A stretch of DNA of 64,000 nucleotides, taken from assembly GCA_004356985.1 (NCBI GenBank), contig SMXQ01000107.1:13501-77500 (forward strand), in the 5' to 3' direction. Numbering within the stretch: position 1 is the first letter of the stretch; the number at the start of each line of letters is the position of its first letter. The position numbers and the translations under genes are program-made. This document shows, piece after piece, positions 10,994 to 58,760 of the stretch. Origin of the DNA: Alphaproteobacteria bacterium. GTDB taxonomy: Bacteria; Pseudomonadota; Alphaproteobacteria; SMXQ01. The notes under the pieces are model-generated. The model saw only the letters and a program-made list of their open reading frames with translations. It had not been told where the DNA came from and did no database searches.

Positions 10994-11220
10994 GGCGTTT
11001 TCGCTTATCCAGCGATCTGGCAAGCGTCCTTATCAAGGTTGCTCCGCGCATTCCGGGCAATCATACTGAACAGTCCTGCCAACGGGAATAGCCGATGGCC
11101 ATCCCCGGTCAGAAAGATTGAACGCCTTCCAACGGCGCCGGTACCGCCTTTGAACCTTTCAACCGGGCCGGCGGCGCCTGTACGCTTGAGAAAATTCGGG
11201 TGGTCTTCCGCCTCTAGAGT

Positions 11221-11257
11221 ACTTCCGGGTTAAATTGAATCATTTGACCGGAAAGTG
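11221..11257. repeat. palindromic repeat unit (copy A): ACTTCCGGG-ttaaattgaatcatttga-CCGGAAAGT
   Basis: Hairpin-forming unit with 8-9-bp arms and a conserved loop. It abuts the mucR stop codon (11260-11262) and lies about 200 bp upstream of the fur-like gene. It is related to the copies at 29714, 29760, 29987, 44648 and 57807. Confidence 0.6.
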
Positions 11258-11259
11258 CT

Positions 11260-11673
11260 CTAACCCCTGCGCCTGGGCTTCCTGCCGAGGCCGATCTTTT
11301 TCGCCAGGTTGGAACGCTGGCGCGCGTAATTGGGTGCGACCATGGGATAGTTCGCCGGCAGGCCCCAGCGCTCGCGATATTCTCCGGGGGTCATGTTGTA
11401 GGAGGTTTTCAAGTGCCGCTTCAGCATCTTAAGTTTTCTACCATCCTCCAGACAGATGATATGATCGGGCGTTACCGACCGCTTGATGGGAACCGCCGGC
11501 TGGGGCCGGTCGGCCTGTCCCGAGGGGCCTTGGTCGATGGTCGTGAGCGTGCCGTACACTTGGCGGATCAGATCAGGAATATCTTGAATTGCCACCGGAT
11601 TATTGGCCAGGTGAGACGACACGATTTCGGTTGTCAGTTCGAGAAGGTCGTTTGTTTCTCTTGGATCCGCCAT
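11260..11673 (-). CDS. mucR: MucR/Ros-family zinc-finger transcriptional regulator
   Basis: The 137-aa ORF has the Ros/MucR C2H2-like region HIICLEDGRKLKMLKRHLKTSYNMTPGEYRERWGLPANYPMVAPNYA. Confidence 0.85.
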   Translation of the reverse strand: MADPRETNDLLELTTEIVSSHLANNPVAIQDIPDLIRQVYGTLTTIDQGPSGQADRPQPAVPIKRSVTPDHIICLEDGRKLKMLKRHLKTSYNMTPGEYRERWGLPANYPMVAPNYARQRSNLAKKIGLGRKPRRRG

Positions 11674-28004: not shown

Positions 28005-28859
28005 ATGCCCGATATCAATCTTTCCGGCCGCGCCATCATCGTCACCGGCGCAAGCCGCGGCATGGGCCGGGAAATGGCCGATGCGCTGCTGGCGGCGGGG
28101 GCCTCCGTCGCCGTGCTCAGCCCCGAGGCCGACGAGCTCGAAGCCACGGCGGCGGAGTTGGGCGCGGCCCATGGCCGTCATCGGGTCATCGCGCTGGTTT
28201 CCGACATTACCGACTACCACGGCTGCGCGCGCGGCGTCGCCGAGACCGTCGCCGCCTTCGGCGGCCTCGACGGCCTGGTCAACCATGCCGGCATCGGCCC
28301 TCTCCAGGTCGCGCCCACGGTTTCCGAAAGCGAGCACGTGCCTTTCTGGATCGCCGATCCGGCCCGTTGGGCGCGGTTGATCGAGGTCAACATGATCGGC
28401 ACCTATTTCATGGCCCGGGCGGCGGCCCCGGTGATGATCCAACGCGGCTGGGGGCGGATCGTCAACGTCACCACCTCGCTGCCCAATTACGGCCGGGGCC
28501 ACTGGAGCCCCTATGGCTGTTCCAAGGCGGGGGTCGAATCCGAGACCCTGATCTTCGCCCAGGACCTCGAGGGCACGGGCGTGACCTGCAACGCGTTTTT
28601 CCCGGGCGGCGCGGTGCGGACCAAATTCGTGCCGCAAAATATGCATTCCAGCCCACGGCTGCTGGATGCCGACATCATGCGCAAGCCCATCGTCTGGCTG
28701 ATGTCGGATCACTCCGGCAAGCATAACGGCGAACGGTTCAACGCGCGCTATTGGGACGCCGCCGCCGACGCGGGCGAGGCCGCGGCCCAGGCCGTGACCG
28801 TCCCCGCCTACCGGGCGCCGCCGCCCCGGGCCAACCTCGGCAAGGAAGAGGGCGCATGA
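28005..28859 (+). CDS. SDR-family oxidoreductase (paralog 1)
   Basis: IVTGASRGMGREMA gives the Rossmann motif. The N-terminal part of the supplied 483-aa ORF is out of frame, and the real start is ATG 28005. Confidence 0.8.
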   Translation: MPDINLSGRAIIVTGASRGMGREMADALLAAGASVAVLSPEADELEATAAELGAAHGRHRVIALVSDITDYHGCARGVAETVAAFGGLDGLVNHAGIGPLQVAPTVSESEHVPFWIADPARWARLIEVNMIGTYFMARAAAPVMIQRGWGRIVNVTTSLPNYGRGHWSPYGCSKAGVESETLIFAQDLEGTGVTCNAFFPGGAVRTKFVPQNMHSSPRLLDADIMRKPIVWLMSDHSGKHNGERFNARYWDAAADAGEAAAQAVTVPAYRAPPPRANLGKEEGA

Positions 28860-29695
28860 GCGATATCCATCTCGATGACCGGGTCGCCATCGTCACCGGG
28901 GGCAGCCGGGGCATGGGCCGCGAGATGGGCGAAGCCATCATCGAGGCCGGCGGCCGGGCGGCGCTGCTGACGCCCGAAGCCGAAGAGCTCAAGGAAACCG
29001 TCGACGAGATCGCGTCAAACCACGGCGCCGACAAGGTGATGGCGCTGCCTTACGACATCCTTGATTACGGCCAATGCGAACGCGCCGTCGCTGAGACCCT
29101 GGAGTACTTCGGAGCCCTGCACGGGGTCGTCAACAACGCGGCGCTGGGCCAGCTCAACGTCATCGCGCCGGGCGCCGACGACACCAACTGCAAGTTCTTC
29201 GAGGCCGACCCCGAACGTTGGGCCCAGGTGATCCGCGTCAACGTGGTCGGCACCTACCACATGTGCCGCGCCGCGGTGGGTCACCTGAAGGACCAGGGCT
29301 GGGGCCGGCTGGTCAATGTCACCACCTCCATCGGCACCATGCAGCGCAGCGGCAACAGCCCCTATGGTCCGTCCAAGGGCGCCATCGAATCCGAAACCCT
29401 GGTGTTCGCCGCCGACCTGGTGGGCTACGGCGTGACCTGCAATTCCCTGATCCCGGGCGGCGCGGCGCGGACCAAGTTCGTGCCCGAGGCCTATTACAAG
29501 ACCCGCGATCTGGTGGAACCTTCGATCATGCGCGTGCCCATCGTCTGGCTGTTATCCGATCTCTCCGACGAGCACACCGGCGGGCGCTACGTGGCCAACC
29601 GATGGGATCACGGCGCTAACGACCCCAGTCTGGCGGCCGAGGCGGCGAAGGAACCGCCGGTGTTCAACCCGCCGCCGGAAGGGCGGCTCGACTGA
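28856..29695 (+). CDS. SDR-family oxidoreductase (paralog 2)
   Basis: IVTGGSRGMGREMG is clearly paralogous to the upstream SDR, and the sequence is collinear throughout. The start overlaps the upstream stop in an ATGA arrangement. Confidence 0.8.
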   Translation: MSDIHLDDRVAIVTGGSRGMGREMGEAIIEAGGRAALLTPEAEELKETVDEIASNHGADKVMALPYDILDYGQCERAVAETLEYFGALHGVVNNAALGQLNVIAPGADDTNCKFFEADPERWAQVIRVNVVGTYHMCRAAVGHLKDQGWGRLVNVTTSIGTMQRSGNSPYGPSKGAIESETLVFAADLVGYGVTCNSLIPGGAARTKFVPEAYYKTRDLVEPSIMRVPIVWLLSDLSDEHTGGRYVANRWDHGANDPSLAAEAAKEPPVFNPPPEGRLD

Positions 29696-29713
29696 CCCGC
29701 CGCATGGCCGGGG

Positions 29714-29754
29714 CACCTTCCGGCCAAGTGGTTCAAATGGGCCGGAAGGTGACC
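29714..29754. repeat. palindromic repeat unit (copy B1): ACCTTCCGGCC-aagtggttcaaatg-GGCCGGAAGGT
   Basis: Perfect 11-bp inverted arms, 19 bp after the SDR stop. The loop is the reverse orientation of the family core. Confidence 0.6.
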
Positions 29755-29759
29755 TAGGG

Positions 29760-30017
29760 CACTTCCGGGCCAAATTGAACCATTTGACCGGGATGATTTT
29801 GCCCCAAGGTTAGACGCGTGTCGCATGGCGATGCGGGGCATCGGCAAAGATACGCAACGACGCCTTGGGGGAAAAGCACCCGACCTACGGTGGGGCTCAT
29901 GGGCTTCCAGGGTGCGTTGCGGCTCTTGCCCGATGCACCGCATCGCGCTTCGAACCGCGCCTACCCTGGAAGCCCATGAGCCCCATCAAATTGATTCAAT
30001 TTGGCCCGGAAGTGACC
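29760..30017. mobile_element. MITE-like composite element (~258 bp) with terminal inverted repeats of the palindromic repeat family and nested internal inverted repeats
   Basis: Left end CACTTCCGGGCCAAATTGAACCATTTGACCGGG (29760-29793) and right end CAAATTGATTCAATTTGGCCCGGAAGTGACC (29987-30017) are inverted copies. Inside is a perfect 22-bp inverted repeat, TGGGGCTCATGGGCTTCCAGGG at 29891-29912 and CCCTGGAAGCCCATGAGCCCCA at 29965-29986, plus a further imperfect inverted pair (29828-29847 and 29925-29945). There is no ORF. The right end abuts the mutS stop codon. Confidence 0.45.
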
Positions 30018-32743
30018 TAGTCCCCGGCCGAGACGATGCCCTTGAGCCGGTAGAGGAGTTCCAAGGCCTGGCGCGGGGTAAGCTCGTCGGGATTGACCTC
30101 ATCAAAGGCCTGTTCCAGTGCGCTCGGCCCCCGCCGCGTCATCGCCGCCGCGAACAGCGGCAGGTCGTCGGCCAGGCGGGAGACCGCGTCGGCCTTTTCG
30201 CCCTGTTCGATGGCGCAGAGCACCTCTTCCGCCCGGTCGAGCGCCGCCTTGGGGAGACCCGCTAGGCGGGCCACGTGAATGCCGTAAGAGCGATCCGCCG
30301 TGCCCGGGCCCACGGTATGGAGGAACACCACCTCTCCCTTCCATTCCTTGACCCCCATGGCGTGATTGGACAGCTCGTGAAGGCGTGCGGAAAGCTGGGT
30401 CAATTCGTGGTAATGGGTGGCAAATAGGCCGCGGCAGGCGTTGACCTCGTGCAGGTGTTCGATGATCGCCCAGGCGAGCGACAGCCCGTCGAAGGTAGCG
30501 GTGCCGCGGCCGATTTCGTCGAGGATCACCAGCGCGCGCGGCCCCGCCTGATGGAGGATGGTGGCGGTTTCCACCATTTCCACCATGAAGGTGGAGCGGC
30601 CCCGGGCGAGGTCGTCGGCGGCACCGACGCGGCTGAAGAGACGGTCGACCACGCCGATATGGGCGGCCGCGGCGGGCACGAAGCAGCCGACCTGGGCGAG
30701 GATGGCGATCAGGGCGTTCTGGCGCAGGAAGGTGGACTTGCCGGCCATGTTGGGCCCGGTCACCAGCCACAACCGGCTGGCTTGGCGGCCGGCCTCGGTT
30801 TCCTCTTGGTCATGGGCCGCGCCGGGTTCGGCCGCACCAAGGCCTTGGTCGGTGAGGTCGCAATCGTTGGCCATGAAAGGGGCCGCGCCGGCCCGGCGCA
30901 GGACCTGTTCCACCACCGGGTGCCGGCCGCCCTTGACGCGAAAGGCGAGGCTGGCGTCGACCTGCGGCCGGCAATAGGCGCCTTGGCGCGCCAGCGCGGC
31001 AAAACCCGCCGCCACGTCGAGCCAGGCCAGGGCGCGGGCGGTCCTGGCGATGGGCTCGGCATTGTCCTTCACCGCGCCCGCCAACCGCTCGAATATTTCC
31101 AGCTCGAGGGCCAGCGCCCGGTCCGACGAGCGGGCGATGGCGGTTTCCAGGTCCACCAGTTCCTCGGTGTTGAAACGGACCACGGAAGCCAGGGTTTGGC
31201 GGTGGTGGAAGAAATGCTCCTCGCCGTCGGGACCTTTCGCGCCGGTCATGCCGTCGGCCTGGCTGGCGCGCGTTTCGATGAAATAGCCGAGCACGTTGTT
31301 ATGGCGGATGCGCAGGTTTTTGATCCCCGAACACGACCGGTAGCGGCTTTCCAGATTGGCGATCAGCCGCCGGCTTTCATCGCGAAGCGCGCGGGTTTCA
31401 TCGAGCGCGGCATCGAACCCGGGCGCGACCAACCCGCCGTCCCGGGTGAGCAGCGGTAAATCCGCCGCCAGTGCCTTGTCCAAGAGGCCGATGAGCGCGC
31501 CATGATCACCGAGGTCTGCGATCCATTGGGCGACCAGCGGCGGCGGCGGCGCGAGCGGGCGCGCGCCATCCTTGGCGAGGGCCGCTTTGAGGTCCTGGGC
31601 GCCGCGCAAGCCATCGCCGACAGCGGCGAGGTCGCGGGGACCGCCGCGGCCCAGGCTGACCCGTGCGAGGGCGCGTTCCACGTCGGGTAGCCCGTCCAGC
31701 GCCTTGGCGACGGCGCCGCGCGGACCGGGTGTGCCGTCTTCGTCGCCGACGAACCAGGCCACGGCGTCGAGCCGGCGGTTGATGAGCTCCGCGTCGGTCA
31801 AGGGGGCGGCCAGCAGCGCCGTCACCAGGCGCCCGCCGGCGCCGGTCAAGGTGCGGTCGATGACCTCGAGCAGGCTGCCGCCGCGGCCGCCGCCGATGGC
31901 TTGTGTCAGTTCCAGGTTGCGCCGCGTCTGGGGGTCGATTTCCATGGCCTCGCCTTGGTCGATGCGCCGGGGCGGGTCGATGCGCGGCAGGCTCCCTTTC
32001 TGGGTCAATTCGACATAGTTCACCAGGGCCCCGGCGGCGGCCAGCTCGGGGCGGGTGAAGCGGCCAAAGCCGTCCAGCGACGCCACCGCGAACAGCTTTT
32101 CCAGGCGGCGCGCGCCATTGCCGGAATCGAACAGGCTTGCGGGCTGGGCGGTGACGGTGGTGCCGGCCTCCTCGCCAAGCTGTTCGAGGATGGCCGCCAG
32201 TTCGGGCTTGGCATTGAGGCGATCGGACAGCAGCAGTTCACCCGGCTCCACCCGGGCGAGGACCGATGGAAGCCGCGCCAGCGTCACCGGCTGGGCGAAA
32301 AATTCGCCCGTGGAAATGTCGAGCCAGGCGAGCCCCAGCGCGCCTTGGGCTTCGGCCAGGGCGGCGAGAAAATTATTGCGCTTGGCGTCAAGCAGCGCTT
32401 CCTCGGTCAACGTGCCGGGGGTGATCAGCCGCACCACCTCCCGGGCGACCACCGCCTTGGCGCCCCGCTTCTTGGCCTCCGCCGGGTCCTCGATCTGGTC
32501 GCAGACGGCGACCTTGAAACCTTTTCTGATGAGGCGCGCGAGATAGCTATCGGCGGAATGGACCGGCACCCCGCACATGGGGATGTCCTCGCCCAGGTGC
32601 TTTCCGCGATGGGTCAGGGCGATGTCCAGCGCCCGCGCGGCGGCGAAGGCGTCATCGAAGAAGAGCTCGTAAAAATCGCCCATGCGGTAGAACAGGAGGC
32701 CGTCGGGATGCGCCGCCTTGATGCGCAGGTACTGGGCCATCAT
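30017..32743 (-). CDS. mutS: DNA mismatch repair protein MutS
   Basis: [32 protein letters not shown] matches the MutS N-terminus, and a Walker [10 protein letters not shown] follows. The start is uncertain, since the ORF extends to 32905. Confidence 0.9.
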
Positions 32744-33176
32744 CGGCGTCGCGCCGGCCGTAGGGCCGCCCGCCGGGGGTTTTTTCGCGTCTTTCACGTC
32801 CGCGGTCGCGTGCTGGGACAAGGATCGATGCCTCCCGCCGGTGGATCGACGCGCCCAGGGCCCGGGCCGCCGGCGCCGGCAATCACCGTCGGGATAGCTT
32901 ATCACAGCAACCGGCCGGGACTGAAGGGGCGGTCCGGAAAGACCGGGCGGCCGGTCCCCCTGGCGGAAAATTTCGCACCTCCCGCCACGTTCACCATCCG
33001 GTGGAAATAAGGCCGGTGGCGACTATGGGCTTGGCAAGCGGCGAAAACCGGGTAAGTCTCCACAGTTTGAGCCGCCGCCGACGTTCCGGTCATCGGCACC
33101 GGAGCGCCCTGCGGCGGCCCCAAGACCGCCCGGCACCACCGCCGAGCCCAAAACAACCGCATCAGGGAAATCCGTC

Positions 33177-44633: not shown

Positions 44634-44647
44634 TTAGAGCACAATGG

Positions 44648-44670
44648 GACCGATTTGAACCATTTGACGG
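44648..44670. repeat. repeat family copy D (loop-only): GACCGATTTGAACCATTTGACGG
   Basis: It lies 15-35 bp upstream of the nth start codon, in the nth-DMT divergent intergenic region. Confidence 0.5.
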
Positions 44671-44876
44671 CAAGCCGCCGCCGCCGCCGGGGGGCGCGGT
44701 CAAGGGTGCAATGCTTTGACAGGCGCCGAACCGCGCCCTATCAAGAACCATGATCGATGACCGGGAAAAGCCCGCGGCCCAAGCGTCCCTGGGCGGCGGC
44801 GCCAAAGCTTGGGACGGGAACGCCGGGCCCAGCAGCGCCGCGCGGCTGACCCGCGCCGCACGGGAAAACTGAGCCC

Positions 44877-57780: not shown

Positions 57781-57806
57781 CGGCGCCGCGCTGGGCGCAA
57801 ATTCCC

Positions 57807-57828
57807 GCCAATTTGAACCATTTCACCG
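57807..57828. repeat. repeat family copy E (loop-only): GCCAATTTGAACCATTTCACCG
   Basis: It lies 27 bp after the yraN stop and about 55 bp upstream of the BON-domain gene start. Confidence 0.5.
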
Positions 57829-57882
57829 TGCAGCGCCCTGGACAAGGGCCGAGAGTTGTGAATCAATGGGCCGGGGCCGACC

Positions 57883-58641
57883 GTGCCGTGTCGAACATTC
57901 AACGGGGCTGCATCCATGACGACGAATTTCCCGAAACCCTCTGCCGACCACGGGATGAACGGCGGGATGAACGGCGGGATGACCGGGCGGGGCCCTTGCG
58001 CGCGCGCTGATTTCCGCGTGTTTCGCCGCCTCCGCCGTGCCGCCTGCCTGGCCCTCATACTTGGCGTGGGCGGCCTCACCGGGGGGTGCGCCACCTCCGC
58101 GGTGGTGGGGATTGGCGCGTCGGGCGCCGTGGCGGCATCGGAAGAGCGTGGGCTCGGCGGCGCGCTGCGTGATAAGCGCATCAAGGCGGTGATCAACTAT
58201 CACCTGCTCGACGTCGATCCTCAACTGCTCAGGGGGTTGTCCACCGCCGTCTATGAAGGCCGCGTGCTGCTCACCGGCATCGCCGCCACCACCGCCAAGC
58301 GTGACGCCGCGGTGCGCATCGCCTGGCAGGCCGAGGGCGTCAAGGAGGTGATCAACGAGATCATCGTCGATGCCAAGGGGGTAAGCGGCAGCTTCGCCCG
58401 GGACACCTGGATCTCCGCCAAGCTGCGGGCCAAGCTGTTGTTCGAAACGGATATCGTCGGCATCAACTATTCCATCGATACCGTCCGCGGCACGGTGCAC
58501 CTGTTGGGCGTCGCCCAGGACCGCGCCGAGCTCGACCTGGTGCTCATTTACGCGCGGAATCTCAGCCATGTCCGCAACGTGGTGAACCACGTCATCCTCA
58601 AGACCGACCCCAGGCGCCAGGCCAACCAAGCCAAGAAGTGA
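57883..58641 (+). CDS. BON-domain (OsmY/DolP/YraP-like) periplasmic lipoprotein
   Basis: A lipobox LTGGC is followed by two BON-like repeats (RIKAVINYHL...EGRVLLTG, ISAKLRAKLLF...VRGTVHLLG). Its position after yraN matches E. coli yraP. Confidence 0.7.
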   Translation: MPCRTFNGAASMTTNFPKPSADHGMNGGMNGGMTGRGPCARADFRVFRRLRRAACLALILGVGGLTGGCATSAVVGIGASGAVAASEERGLGGALRDKRIKAVINYHLLDVDPQLLRGLSTAVYEGRVLLTGIAATTAKRDAAVRIAWQAEGVKEVINEIIVDAKGVSGSFARDTWISAKLRAKLLFETDIVGINYSIDTVRGTVHLLGVAQDRAELDLVLIYARNLSHVRNVVNHVILKTDPRRQANQAKK

Positions 58642-58760
58642 CCCCCGCCGGGGCCAGGGCATATTCCGGGCAAAAGGTTTAATTCGGCCCCATAGTGCAC
58701 TAGGCTGGGCGGTCGAGACCGGTCAAACCGCACCGGTGAACCCACCGGGTACCCCTGCCC

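What the first reader, a model, noticed from the sequence alone, without database searches (positions are those of the whole stretch)
29714..30017. Structured ~300-bp non-coding element between the SDR pair and mutS: MITE-like composite with terminal and nested perfect inverted repeats
The 320-bp gap between the convergent SDR gene (stop 29695) and mutS (stop 30017-30019) has no plausible ORF but is organised in three layers:
- a stand-alone palindromic unit with perfect 11-bp arms (29714-29754);
- two inverted copies of the same repeat family forming about 30-bp terminal inverted repeats (29760-29793 and 29987-30017);
- inside them, a perfect 22-bp inverted repeat (29891-29912 and 29965-29986) and another imperfect inverted pair (29828-29847 and 29925-29945).

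This is the architecture of a miniature inverted-repeat transposable element, or of a highly structured small RNA or 3'-UTR element. The right end coincides exactly with the mutS stop codon, so the element would be part of the mutS 3' UTR and could act as a terminator, stabiliser or antisense module.
Basis: seen in the sequence. Interest (0 to 1): 0.55.

Follow-up and report, generated by a model that had tools for sequence, protein, structure and literature searches.

The report
Miniature transposon inserted at mutS stop
The structured 300-bp gap after mutS is two adjacent copies (one short and decayed, one long and intact) of a previously undescribed miniature non-coding transposon that inserts at TA inside the rare CTAG motif; it is a real mobile element but an ordinary kind of one.

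Summary
The 321-nt gap between the convergent SDR and mutS genes has the layered inverted repeats described and folds far better than shuffled sequence (z about -15 on both strands).

The MITE reading is supported:
- Five related species with the same gene order have only 9-20 nt between the two stop codons, so about 310 nt was inserted.
- The 261-nt core (29757-30017) recurs at 79-92% identity at more than 10 unrelated loci in metagenome contigs.
- A 49-nt short form of the same termini occurs at four other intergenic sites in this window.
- Copies have roughly 32-nt terminal inverted repeats (GAGCACTTCCGGGCCAAATTGAA...).
- Copies are flanked by TA. The outer bases differ between the two ends (CTAG/CTAA, TTAG/CTAG), so the duplication is TA within a YTAR, mostly CTAG, target.

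CTAG is about 8-fold depleted in the window and often lies at stop codons. The element's terminal base rebuilds TAG. That explains the exact coincidence with the mutS stop.

The locus is a decayed short copy (29708-29757) plus a long copy inserted at its CTAG.

I found no partner transposase, Rfam family or terminator. RNA function is untested.

Verdict: a new member of a known kind (a bacterial MITE that duplicates TA), of modest interest.

The parts
28856..29695 (+). Flanking short-chain dehydrogenase gene (279 aa), stop TGA at 29693-29695
   Evidence: Pfam adh_short E 2.4e-39. Gene call on source contig L001:13127-13966.
29696..29707 (.). Residue of the original intergenic spacer (CCCGCCGCATGG)
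   Evidence: Relatives have 9-20 nt between the two stops. This residue partly matches the L005 spacer CAGGCCGCG....
29708..29757 (-). Unit A, a decayed short-form copy of the family. Arms are 29711-29725 / 29740-29754. The right head CTAG (29754-29757) is intact; the left head has decayed to CCGG (29708-29711).
   Evidence: the repeat finder pair I6. nhmmer hit 29757-29711, E 2.3e-11. Compared with complete short forms.
29755..29756 (.). TA flanking the left end of the long element (one copy of the target duplication), inside CTAG 29754-29757
   Evidence: Terminus analysis.
29757..30017 (+). Long-form element (261 nt, G...C between the two TAs); the mobile unit
   Evidence: Full-length copies at 79-92% identity at unrelated loci: L077, L068, L080, L063, L067, L079, L071, L046.
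29757..29788 (+). Left terminal inverted repeat (GGGCACTTCCGGGCCAAATTGAACCATTTGAC)
   Evidence: the repeat finder pair I2, 32 nt, 91%. Helix 1 is 95.9% paired across copies.
29791..29881 (+). Internal hairpin H1 (outer arms 29791-29809 / 29863-29881)
   Evidence: Conserved across copies with compensatory pairs, e.g. columns 66/99 CG:6 UA:3 UG:2 and 73/93 UA:6 CG:5.
29882..29890 (.). Centre of the quasi-palindrome (GACCTACGG). The two ~133-nt halves on either side of it are inverted homologues.
   Evidence: Left half against the reverse complement of the right half: 72% identity; interior score 67 against 5 +/- 7.5 for shuffles.
29891..29985 (+). Internal hairpin H2: perfect 23-nt arms 29891-29913 / 29963-29985 and a 49-nt loop 29914-29962
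   Evidence: The loop is inverted (1 mismatch) in the conspecific allele L081.
29986..30017 (-). Right terminal inverted repeat. Its last base, C at 30017, supplies the G of the mutS TAG stop.
30018..30019 (.). TA flanking the right end (the second copy of the target duplication). It forms the T and A of the mutS stop codon on the - strand.
   Evidence: Empty sites in relatives carry a single CTA(G) here.
30017..32821 (-). Flanking mutS gene (934 aa)
   Evidence: Pfam MutS domains I-V. Protein P0001 is 100% identical.
11214..11263 (+). Complete short-form copy (CTAG AGTACTTCCGGGTTAAATTGAATCATTTGACCGGAAAGTGCT CTAA). It abuts the stop codon of a Ros/MucR gene (11260-11673, - strand).
44634..44680 (+). 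Degenerate family copy between the endonuclease III gene (- strand) and an EamA gene (+ strand)
   Evidence: nhmmer E 6.7e-10.
57792..57838 (+). Degenerate family copy upstream of a BON-domain gene
   Evidence: nhmmer E 9.5e-10.
58657..58703 (-). Degenerate family copy between the BON-domain gene and gshB
   Evidence: nhmmer E 1.3e-6.

Best explanation
The gap holds two adjacent copies of one family of miniature, non-coding, cut-and-paste DNA transposons (MITEs).

The family (shown):
- It has terminal inverted repeats of roughly 32 nt with consensus GAGCACTTCCGGGCCAAATTGAA...
- It exists as a 49-nt short form, in which the two ends are fused into one hairpin.
- It also exists as a long form of about 261 nt. 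The long form is a quasi-palindrome of two inverted ~133-nt halves, each carrying its own hairpin.

How it inserts (shown, except where marked):
- It inserts at a TA dinucleotide, preferentially inside CTAG, CTAA or TTAG, and duplicates the TA.
- The element starts with G and ends with C, so each insertion rebuilds CTAG at its junctions.
- This keeps a TAG stop for any gene that ends at the target.
- Inferred: the rebuilt CTAG creates a new target next to the element, which would explain tandem clusters.

History of this locus (inferred):
1. The ancestral spacer was 10-20 nt long and ended in the CTAG that contains the mutS stop.
2. A short-form copy (unit A, 29708-29757) inserted there and later decayed at its left end.
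3. A long-form copy (29757-30017) then inserted into the TA of the CTAG between unit A and mutS.

Mobilisation (inferred): a TA-duplicating DDE transposase supplied in trans moves the element. Candidates are IS630/Tc1-mariner-like or IS5-family IS427-group-like enzymes. None was found.

The perfect and co-varying stems (inferred): these are best explained by arm-to-arm templated correction and inversion within quasi-palindromes, not by selection for an RNA.

Effect on the flanking genes (inferred): probably neutral. Both convergent transcripts now read into a very stable hairpin, which could impede read-through or 3' exonucleases, but nothing shows that it does.
For: Insertion at this site:
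- L002 (MutS 89% identical), L003/L004 (85%) and L007 (78%) keep the mutS and SDR-SDR gene order, with gaps of 9-10 nt. L005 (87%) has 20 nt. The window has 321 nt.
- All conspecific contigs (L081-L084) carry the element.

Multi-copy and dispersed:
- nhmmer finds 7 units at 5 intergenic loci in the 64-kb window, and none in about 67 kb of relatives' contigs.
- A 22-nt terminus pattern hits 37 metagenome contigs.
- More than 10 of those contigs carry the whole 29754-30020 segment at 79-92% identity, with unrelated flanks.
- Many contigs end inside a copy.

Discrete ends and TA duplication:
- Termini are CTAG-AGCAC... in 71 hits.
- In about 10 of about 24 complete copies the two ends differ only in the outermost base (CTAG...CTAA or TTAG...CTAG). 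The inner G and C are constant, so only TA is duplicated.
- One clean filled/empty pair: L067:5574-5864 against L066:4308-4345.

Tandem clusters share a single CTAG: the window, L077, L044 and L065.

Target rarity: CTAG occurs 26 times in the window against 198 expected from base composition, and several occurrences lie at ends of - strand ORFs.

No conserved coding capacity: copies differ by 24-27-nt module indels and by a loop inversion.
Against: - No autonomous partner with matching terminal repeats was found. A motif search for IS630-type transposases in 420 kb gave nothing. The only transposase seen, an IS5-family element in L079, has unrelated ends.
- A 2-bp duplication is weak evidence on its own.
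- Unit A and several degenerate copies have the head on one side only.
- The 49-nt palindromic short form, its abundance and its clustering resemble REP/BIME elements.
- Covariation in the stems exceeds the controls. That would also fit selection for structure.
- The host genome is known only as contigs, so true copy number and current activity are unknown.
Confidence: 0.8

Rival explanations
1. REP/REPIN-type element. On this view the 45-49-nt palindromic units are repetitive extragenic palindromes spread by a REP-associated tyrosine (HUH) transposase through single-stranded hairpin intermediates. The long form would be a REP doublet (REPIN/BIME-like mosaic), and CTAG would play the role of the conserved head.
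For: - The units are short, palindromic, abundant and strictly intergenic, and they form tandem or inverted clusters and mosaics.
- In degenerate copies a conserved tetranucleotide head remains on one side only.
- Hairpin structure is maintained with compensatory changes.
- No DDE partner was found.
Against: - The REPs tabulated by Nunvar et al. 2010 (PMC2817692) are 21-35 nt, G+C-rich and begin with GT(A/G)G. These units begin with CTAG, are 49 nt long and have an A+T-rich centre.
- Complete copies carry symmetric terminal repeats with TA at both ends, and the outer bases vary independently. That is a target duplication, which IS200/IS605-type enzymes do not make.
- No Y1 transposase was seen. 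This was not searched with a profile.
Confidence: 0.08
2. A functional RNA element: a structured 3' UTR, bidirectional terminator or insulator, or an sRNA, selected at this locus to separate convergent mutS and SDR transcription.
For: - Folding is extremely stable on both strands (z -15.3 and -14.3).
- Base pairing is conserved with 14 doubly changed pairs, against 5.4 +/- 1.6 in shuffles.
- The element lies in the 3' region of both genes.
- Reviews note that MITE transcripts can act as terminators or sRNAs (PMC10969869).
Against: - The element is absent from five related species, whose genes are only 9-20 nt apart.
- The same element sits at many unrelated loci, including upstream of genes.
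- No Rfam match reaches threshold. The only hits are weak miRNA-hairpin look-alikes.
- No hairpin-plus-T-tract terminator is present.
- Covariation is also expected from templated correction in palindromes and from subfamily structure.
Confidence: 0.05
3. A locally generated quasi-palindrome, produced by fold-back duplication during replication or repair at the convergent gene ends. On this view it is not a mobile element.
For: - The long form consists of two inverted homologous halves.
- Loop inversion and symmetric module gain between conspecific alleles show active palindrome dynamics.
Against: The same 261-nt sequence, with the same discrete ends, occurs at more than 10 loci with unrelated flanks.
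Confidence: 0.02

Closest known systems
Bacterial MITEs that insert at TA: RUP of Streptococcus pneumoniae (107 bp, proposed to be mobilised by IS630-Spn1) and the Correia/NEMIS elements of Neisseria
   Same: - Non-coding, and either under 200 bp or a few hundred bp long.
- Terminal inverted repeats with 5'-TA-3' at both ends, insertion at TA with duplication, and intergenic multi-copy distribution.
- Stable predicted hairpins.
- Clustering with, or insertion into, other repeats (Delihas 2008, PMC2229807; PMC10969869).
   Different: - No sequence similarity was established. No copy was found in GTDB representative genomes, plasmids or viral contigs.
- The host is an uncultured, 66% G+C alphaproteobacterium.
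- The target is strongly biased to the rare CTAG.
- The family has a 49-nt fused-end form and a 261-nt quasi-palindromic double-hairpin form.
- The partner transposase is unknown.
REP / BIME / REPIN elements (RAYT-associated) and the rhizobial intergenic mosaic elements (RIME; the latter recalled from memory, not tested)
   Same: Short palindromic intergenic units that combine into mosaics of alternating orientation, are abundant and are lineage-specific (PMC2817692; PMC3116915, listed).
   Different: - The head is CTAG, not GT(A/G)G.
- The units are longer and have an A+T-rich centre.
- The ends are symmetric and carry a TA duplication.
- No RAYT gene was seen.
IS630 family, and the IS5-family IS427 group, of insertion sequences (possible mobilisers)
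   Same: - From my own knowledge of ISfinder and the 'Everyman's guide': IS630 duplicates TA and prefers CTAG; the IS427 group gives 2-4-bp repeats and has ends beginning Ga/g.
- An 842-bp IS427-like element in L079 (552-1393) is itself flanked by CTAG on both sides and sits at the end of a MITE copy.
   Different: - The MITE encodes no transposase.
- The L079 element's ends (GGTCTGTGGACATT) do not match the MITE's ends.
- No IS630-type signature was found in 420 kb.

Membership tests
MITE (miniature inverted-repeat transposable element) | Terminal inverted repeats flanking a short core | tested here: met
   The ends are 32 nt and 91% complementary in the window. Helix 1 is 95.9% paired across 9 full copies.
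MITE (miniature inverted-repeat transposable element) | Flanking target-site duplication | tested here: met
   TA lies at both ends. The outer bases vary independently of each other. Filled/empty pair L067 against L066. Relatives have a single CTA(G) at the mutS site. Only 2 bp are duplicated, so the evidence comes from many copies taken together.
MITE (miniature inverted-repeat transposable element) | Small size and no transposase or other conserved ORF | tested here: met
   The forms are 49 nt and about 261 nt. Only spurious ORFs of 48-53 aa lie wholly inside the element. Copies differ by module indels and an inversion.
MITE (miniature inverted-repeat transposable element) | Multiple dispersed copies with unrelated flanks in one genome or lineage | tested here: met
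   5 loci in the window and 37 metagenome loci. Nothing outside the element is homologous to the window.
MITE (miniature inverted-repeat transposable element) | Presence/absence polymorphism (empty sites) | tested here: met
   L002, L003, L004 and L007 are empty. L005 carries a 12-nt remnant. L066 and L067 differ at a second site.
MITE (miniature inverted-repeat transposable element) | Cognate autonomous IS with matching terminal repeats | tested here: inconclusive
   None was found in the window or the fetched loci. The rest of the host genome is not available.
IS630/Tc1-mariner-mobilised element | TA duplication with an NTAN/CTAG target | tested here: met
   This feature is also compatible with the IS5-family IS427 group.
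IS630/Tc1-mariner-mobilised element | Terminal repeats similar to those of an IS630-family member | not testable with these tools
   No ISfinder library is available here. No IS630-type motif was found in 420 kb.
REP / REPIN (RAYT-associated) | GT(A/G)G head followed by a 20-35-nt G+C-rich imperfect palindrome | tested here: not met
   The head is CTAG and the unit is 49 nt with an A+T-rich centre (AAATTGAAYCATTTGA). Compared with the REP table in PMC2817692.
REP / REPIN (RAYT-associated) | No target duplication; asymmetric, single-strand-specific ends | tested here: not met
   The ends are symmetric and TA lies on both sides.
REP / REPIN (RAYT-associated) | A RAYT (Y1 transposase) gene flanked by the repeats | not tested
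   No profile search of all ORFs in the loci was done. None of the ORFs that were scanned is a Y1 transposase.
Intrinsic (Rho-independent) terminator | G+C-rich hairpin followed by a T-tract | tested here: not met
   0 sites on either strand of 29400-30300.
Any Rfam RNA family | Covariance-model score at or above the gathering threshold | tested here: not met
   0 hits in the window at gathering thresholds. The best sub-threshold hits are miRNA hairpin models, at 27.6 bits or less against thresholds of 53-100.

The most novel reading that the evidence does not exclude
The element may be more than passive mobile DNA. Two observations leave this open.

First, the 12-nt palindrome YTAG-TGCA-CTAG appears in exactly the two places where a related genome has, or had, a copy: L005 at the mutS site, and L067:7286 where L066 carries a copy. 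These could be excision footprints (TA, then 3 nt from each end, then TA). That would imply ongoing mariner-like cut-and-paste with end-joining in a free-living alphaproteobacterium.

Second, the conserved double hairpin with its invertible 49-nt loop could be maintained by selection. It might serve as a single-stranded transposition intermediate, or as an RNA-level insulator between convergent genes.
Probability: 0.15. Interest if true: 0.5.

Novelty: new member of a known kind. Interest (0 to 1): 0.3.

Why it matters
This explains a conspicuous structured intergenic region without invoking a new RNA or regulator. It also adds a well-delimited MITE family from an uncultured alphaproteobacterial lineage.

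The family has some instructive properties:
- It inserts at TA within the rare CTAG/stop-codon context, and the insertion rebuilds the stop codon.
- It has short and long forms that share the same ends.
- It forms tandem clusters that share a single CTAG, as would be expected if each insertion recreates a target next to itself.
- Alleles within one species show loop inversion and symmetric gain of small modules in the palindrome arms.

Practical consequences: the family breaks metagenome assemblies, since several contigs end inside copies, and it could serve as a strain marker. It does not change our understanding of mutS or of any pathway.

Tried and rejected
- Rfam at gathering thresholds over the window, and permissively on 29600-30120: nothing meaningful.
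- tRNA/tmRNA scan: none.
- blastn of the element against PLSDB plasmids: no match.
- Genome-contig scan with the exact terminus TTGGCCCGGAAGTGMCCTAG: 0 hits.
- Genome-contig scan with a generalised, gapped terminus pattern: 36 single hits in unrelated phyla with no extended similarity. These are chance matches, so the family is absent from GTDB representative genomes at this stringency.
- Viral-contig scan: 0 hits.
- Full-text search of the literature for the terminus and core strings: only unrelated primers.
- Exact-protein look-up of the SDR gene with the wrong (TTG) start, and of P0122: not on record.
- L060, with two inverted termini 1.8 kb apart, was checked as a possible autonomous element. 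It is two separate short copies flanking ordinary genes.
- The IS5-family element in L079 was considered as the partner and rejected, because its ends are unrelated.
- A 4-bp (CTAG) or 3-bp duplication was considered and rejected, because the two ends often differ in the outermost base.
- Enrichment of copy ends at stop codons of long ORFs: 9 of 43 against 13.5% for control TAG triplets. This is only weak, so stop-codon targeting is a by-product of where CTAG occurs, not a specific preference.

Full report
**1. The observation**

The SDR gene ends with TGA at 29693-29695 on the + strand. mutS ends with TAG, read as CTA at 30017-30019 on the - strand. Pfam and the gene calls on the source contig confirm both genes. 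The gap between them is 321 nt.

- a palindromic unit with 15-nt arms, 29711-29725 / 29740-29754;
- a 32-nt, 91% terminal inverted pair, 29754-29785 / 29989-30020;
- a perfect 23-nt pair, 29891-29913 / 29963-29985;
- a 19-nt pair, 29791-29809 / 29863-29881;
- a 53-nt, 77% pair, which shows that the interiors of the two internal hairpins are inverted homologues of each other.

The arm sequences are not expected by chance in the window. The region folds at -208.5 kcal/mol, against -127.6 +/- 5.3 for shuffles (z -15.3). The opposite strand gives z -14.3.

**2. It is an insertion**

MutS homologues led to contigs of related uncultured alphaproteobacteria. All keep the same gene order: malic enzyme, then mutS, converging on two SDR genes.

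| Locus | MutS identity | Gap between stops |
|---|---|---|
| L002 | 89% | 9 nt |
| L003, L004 | 85% | 9 nt |
| L007 | 78% | 10 nt |
| L005 | 87% | 20 nt |
| window | 100% | 321 nt |

L003, L005 and L007 have a single CTAG at the mutS stop. The sequence after it in L005 (TCCCCGGTCGAGACG) continues exactly as in the window.

Conspecific contigs from other samples all carry the element. These are L081, L082, L083 and L084, each close to the window in nucleotide sequence (L082 and L083 over 99.8% identical). L084 is identical across the gap. The insertion is therefore fixed in this species and absent from its sister lineages.

**3. It is a dispersed repeat family**

A sensitive self-search found related units elsewhere in the window. 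An HMM built from six units finds seven units at five loci, all intergenic:
- 11214-11260;
- the three units in the finding;
- 44635-44679;
- 57794-57837;
- 58703-58658.

The same HMM finds none in about 67 kb from the relatives.

A 22-nt terminus pattern matched 37 metagenome contigs, from a few JGI samples and one NCBI metagenome series. One of those JGI samples also yielded the conspecific contig L081.

blastn shows that the whole segment 29754-30020 recurs at 79-92% identity in L077, L068, L080, L063, L067, L079, L071 and L046. Truncated or expanded copies occur in L051, L052, L073, L069, L056, L062, L066 and L065. Nothing outside the element is homologous to the window. Several contigs end inside a copy, which is the usual signature of a repeat in short-read assemblies.

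Complete short forms are 49 nt long. An example is L060:323-373, CTAG AGTACTTCCGGGTTAAATTGAATCAATTTGACTGGAAAGTGCT CTAG.

The family was not found in GTDB representative genomes, PLSDB plasmids or viral contigs.

**4. Ends and target**

Across 71 termini the head is CTAG followed by AGCAC, GGCAC or GTCAC. In complete copies the base just inside each end is constant: G on the left and C on the right. The outermost bases vary independently. Examples are CTAG...CTAA (window 11214-11263, L059, L062, L067, L071) and TTAG...CTAG (L053, L067:6355).

The simplest reading is a symmetric element, GAGCAC...GTGCTC, inserted at TA within YTAR, with only the TA duplicated.

One clean filled/empty pair supports this:
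- L067: ...TTTGCC TA [291-nt element] TA ACCGCGGGG
- L066: ...AATCC TT GGCCGCGGGG

Adjacent copies share exactly one CTAG. This holds for the window (unit A plus the long form), L077, L044 and L065. It is what is expected if a second insertion lands in the TA of the CTAG rebuilt by the first.

**5. Why the right end coincides with the mutS stop**

CTAG is about 8-fold depleted in the window, with 26 occurrences against 198 expected. Several of the remaining sites are ends of - strand ORFs. The element's last base, C at 30017, together with the TA at 30018-30019 reads TAG on the - strand. The insertion therefore preserved the stop codon. The short copy at 11214-11263 abuts the Ros/MucR stop in the same way.

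Across all copies, ends abut long ORFs only slightly more often than control TAG triplets do (9 of 43 against 13.5%). This is a consequence of where CTAG occurs, not a dedicated stop-codon preference.

**6. Anatomy of this locus**

- 29696-29707 is what remains of the original spacer.
- 29708-29757 is a decayed short-form copy. Its left head reads CCGG instead of CTAG.
- 29757-30017 is an intact long form between the TAs at 29755-29756 and 30018-30019.

The long form is a quasi-palindrome. Its left half and the reverse complement of its right half are 72% identical. The interior is 65% identical, with an alignment score of 67 against 5 +/- 7.5 for shuffles. Each half carries its own hairpin: H1 at 29791-29881 and H2 at 29891-29985.

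**7. Structure conservation and palindrome dynamics**

I projected the window's minimum-free-energy structure onto an alignment of 11 long copies:
- 92.6% of cells form a standard pair.
- 14 pairs show changes on both sides, against 5.4 +/- 1.6 in shuffles (0 of 500 shuffles reach 14).
- Controls with the 3' partner slid by 1-3 columns give 0-4 such pairs.

RNAalifold independently recovers H1 with compensatory pairs.

This does not prove an RNA function. The conspecific allele in L081 differs from the window in two ways:
- It has three extra 24-nt modules. Two of them are reverse complements of each other, placed symmetrically in the two arms of H2.
- Its 49-nt H2 loop is exactly inverted, with 1 mismatch.

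These are hallmarks of template switching or arm-to-arm correction in palindromes. That process would also produce perfect arms and apparent compensatory change. This last step is inference.

**8. What it is not**

- No Rfam family matches.
- No tRNA or tmRNA is present.
- No promoter-like or terminator-like site is present.
- It lacks the GT(A/G)G head, the size and the composition of RAYT-associated REPs (PMC2817692).

It does fit the published description of bacterial MITE-like repeats: terminal inverted repeats, 5'-TA-3' at the ends, target duplication, no coding capacity and stable folds (PMC2229807; PMC3184786).

**9. Mobiliser**

No partner transposase was found.
- An IS630-type motif search over 420 kb was negative.
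- The only transposase seen is an 842-bp IS5-family element in L079, with DUF4096 and DDE_Tnp_1 domains. It lies immediately next to a MITE copy and is itself flanked by CTAG, but its ends are unrelated to the MITE's.

From general knowledge of insertion-sequence families, both IS630 and the IS427 group of IS5 can give TA duplications. The evidence here cannot choose between them.

**10. A possible remnant or footprint**

The 10-mer TAGTGCACTA occurs on its own only twice in 372 kb:
- in L005, exactly at the mutS/SDR junction;
- in L067:7287, exactly where L066 carries a copy.

It equals TA, then the fused outermost bases of the two ends, then TA. It may be an excision footprint or an extreme deletion derivative. 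If so, L005 is a vacated site rather than a naive one.

**11. Verdict**

It is a new family of a well-known kind of element, most likely neutral at this locus. Interest is modest.

Noticed in passing
L006:5527-5725 (contig JAZHBU010802780.1; MutS 82% relative): At the same convergent mutS/SDR junction this relative has a 197-nt gap. It consists of about 8 tandem copies of a 21-22-nt unit (GAGGCCCGAAGGGCGGCTGGACT), which repeats the last codons (PEGRLD*) of the SDR gene. This is a different kind of expansion at the same site.
   Followed up: partly
L079:552-1393: An 842-bp IS5-family (IS427-like) insertion sequence with two ORFs (DUF4096 and DDE_Tnp_1) and ends GGTCTGTGGACATT. It is flanked by CTAG on both sides and is inserted exactly at the right end of a long MITE copy. 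CTAG seems to be a shared hotspot.
   Followed up: partly
L051:3440-3640; also L063, L052, L073, L067, L046, L079, L066, L056 and L081 within the long element: A second, smaller palindromic module of 24-27 nt (about GTCATGCGAAGCGTGCATCCGCACGAC) is present or absent at different positions inside copies of the long element. In L051 it forms a tandem array of about 7 units, which enlarges that copy to more than 500 nt. The window's copy has none.
   Followed up: partly
L005:5745-5756 and L067:7286-7297: The 12-nt palindrome YTAG-TGCA-CTAG stands alone exactly at two sites where a related genome carries a family copy. It is a possible excision footprint or minimal remnant.
   Followed up: partly
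L081:12796-13214 compared with window 29680-30030: The conspecific allele of the same insertion has the 49-nt loop of hairpin H2 inverted (1 mismatch). It also has three extra 24-nt modules, two of them placed symmetrically as reverse complements in the two H2 arms.
   Followed up: yes
whole window: CTAG is strongly under-represented: 26 occurrences against 198 expected from base composition. CTAA (18), TTAG (24) and TTAA (22) are also rare. Several CTAG sites coincide with ends of - strand ORFs (5710, 22150, 25725, 54858, 62890).
   Followed up: partly
L082 (ends 135 nt past the mutS stop), L083, L052, L073, L071, L069, L057, L066: Many metagenome contigs terminate inside a copy of the element, so the family fragments short-read assemblies of this lineage.
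   Followed up: no
window 57792-57838 and 58657-58703: Two degenerate family copies bracket a single BON-domain gene (about 57917-58641), one upstream and one downstream.
   Followed up: no
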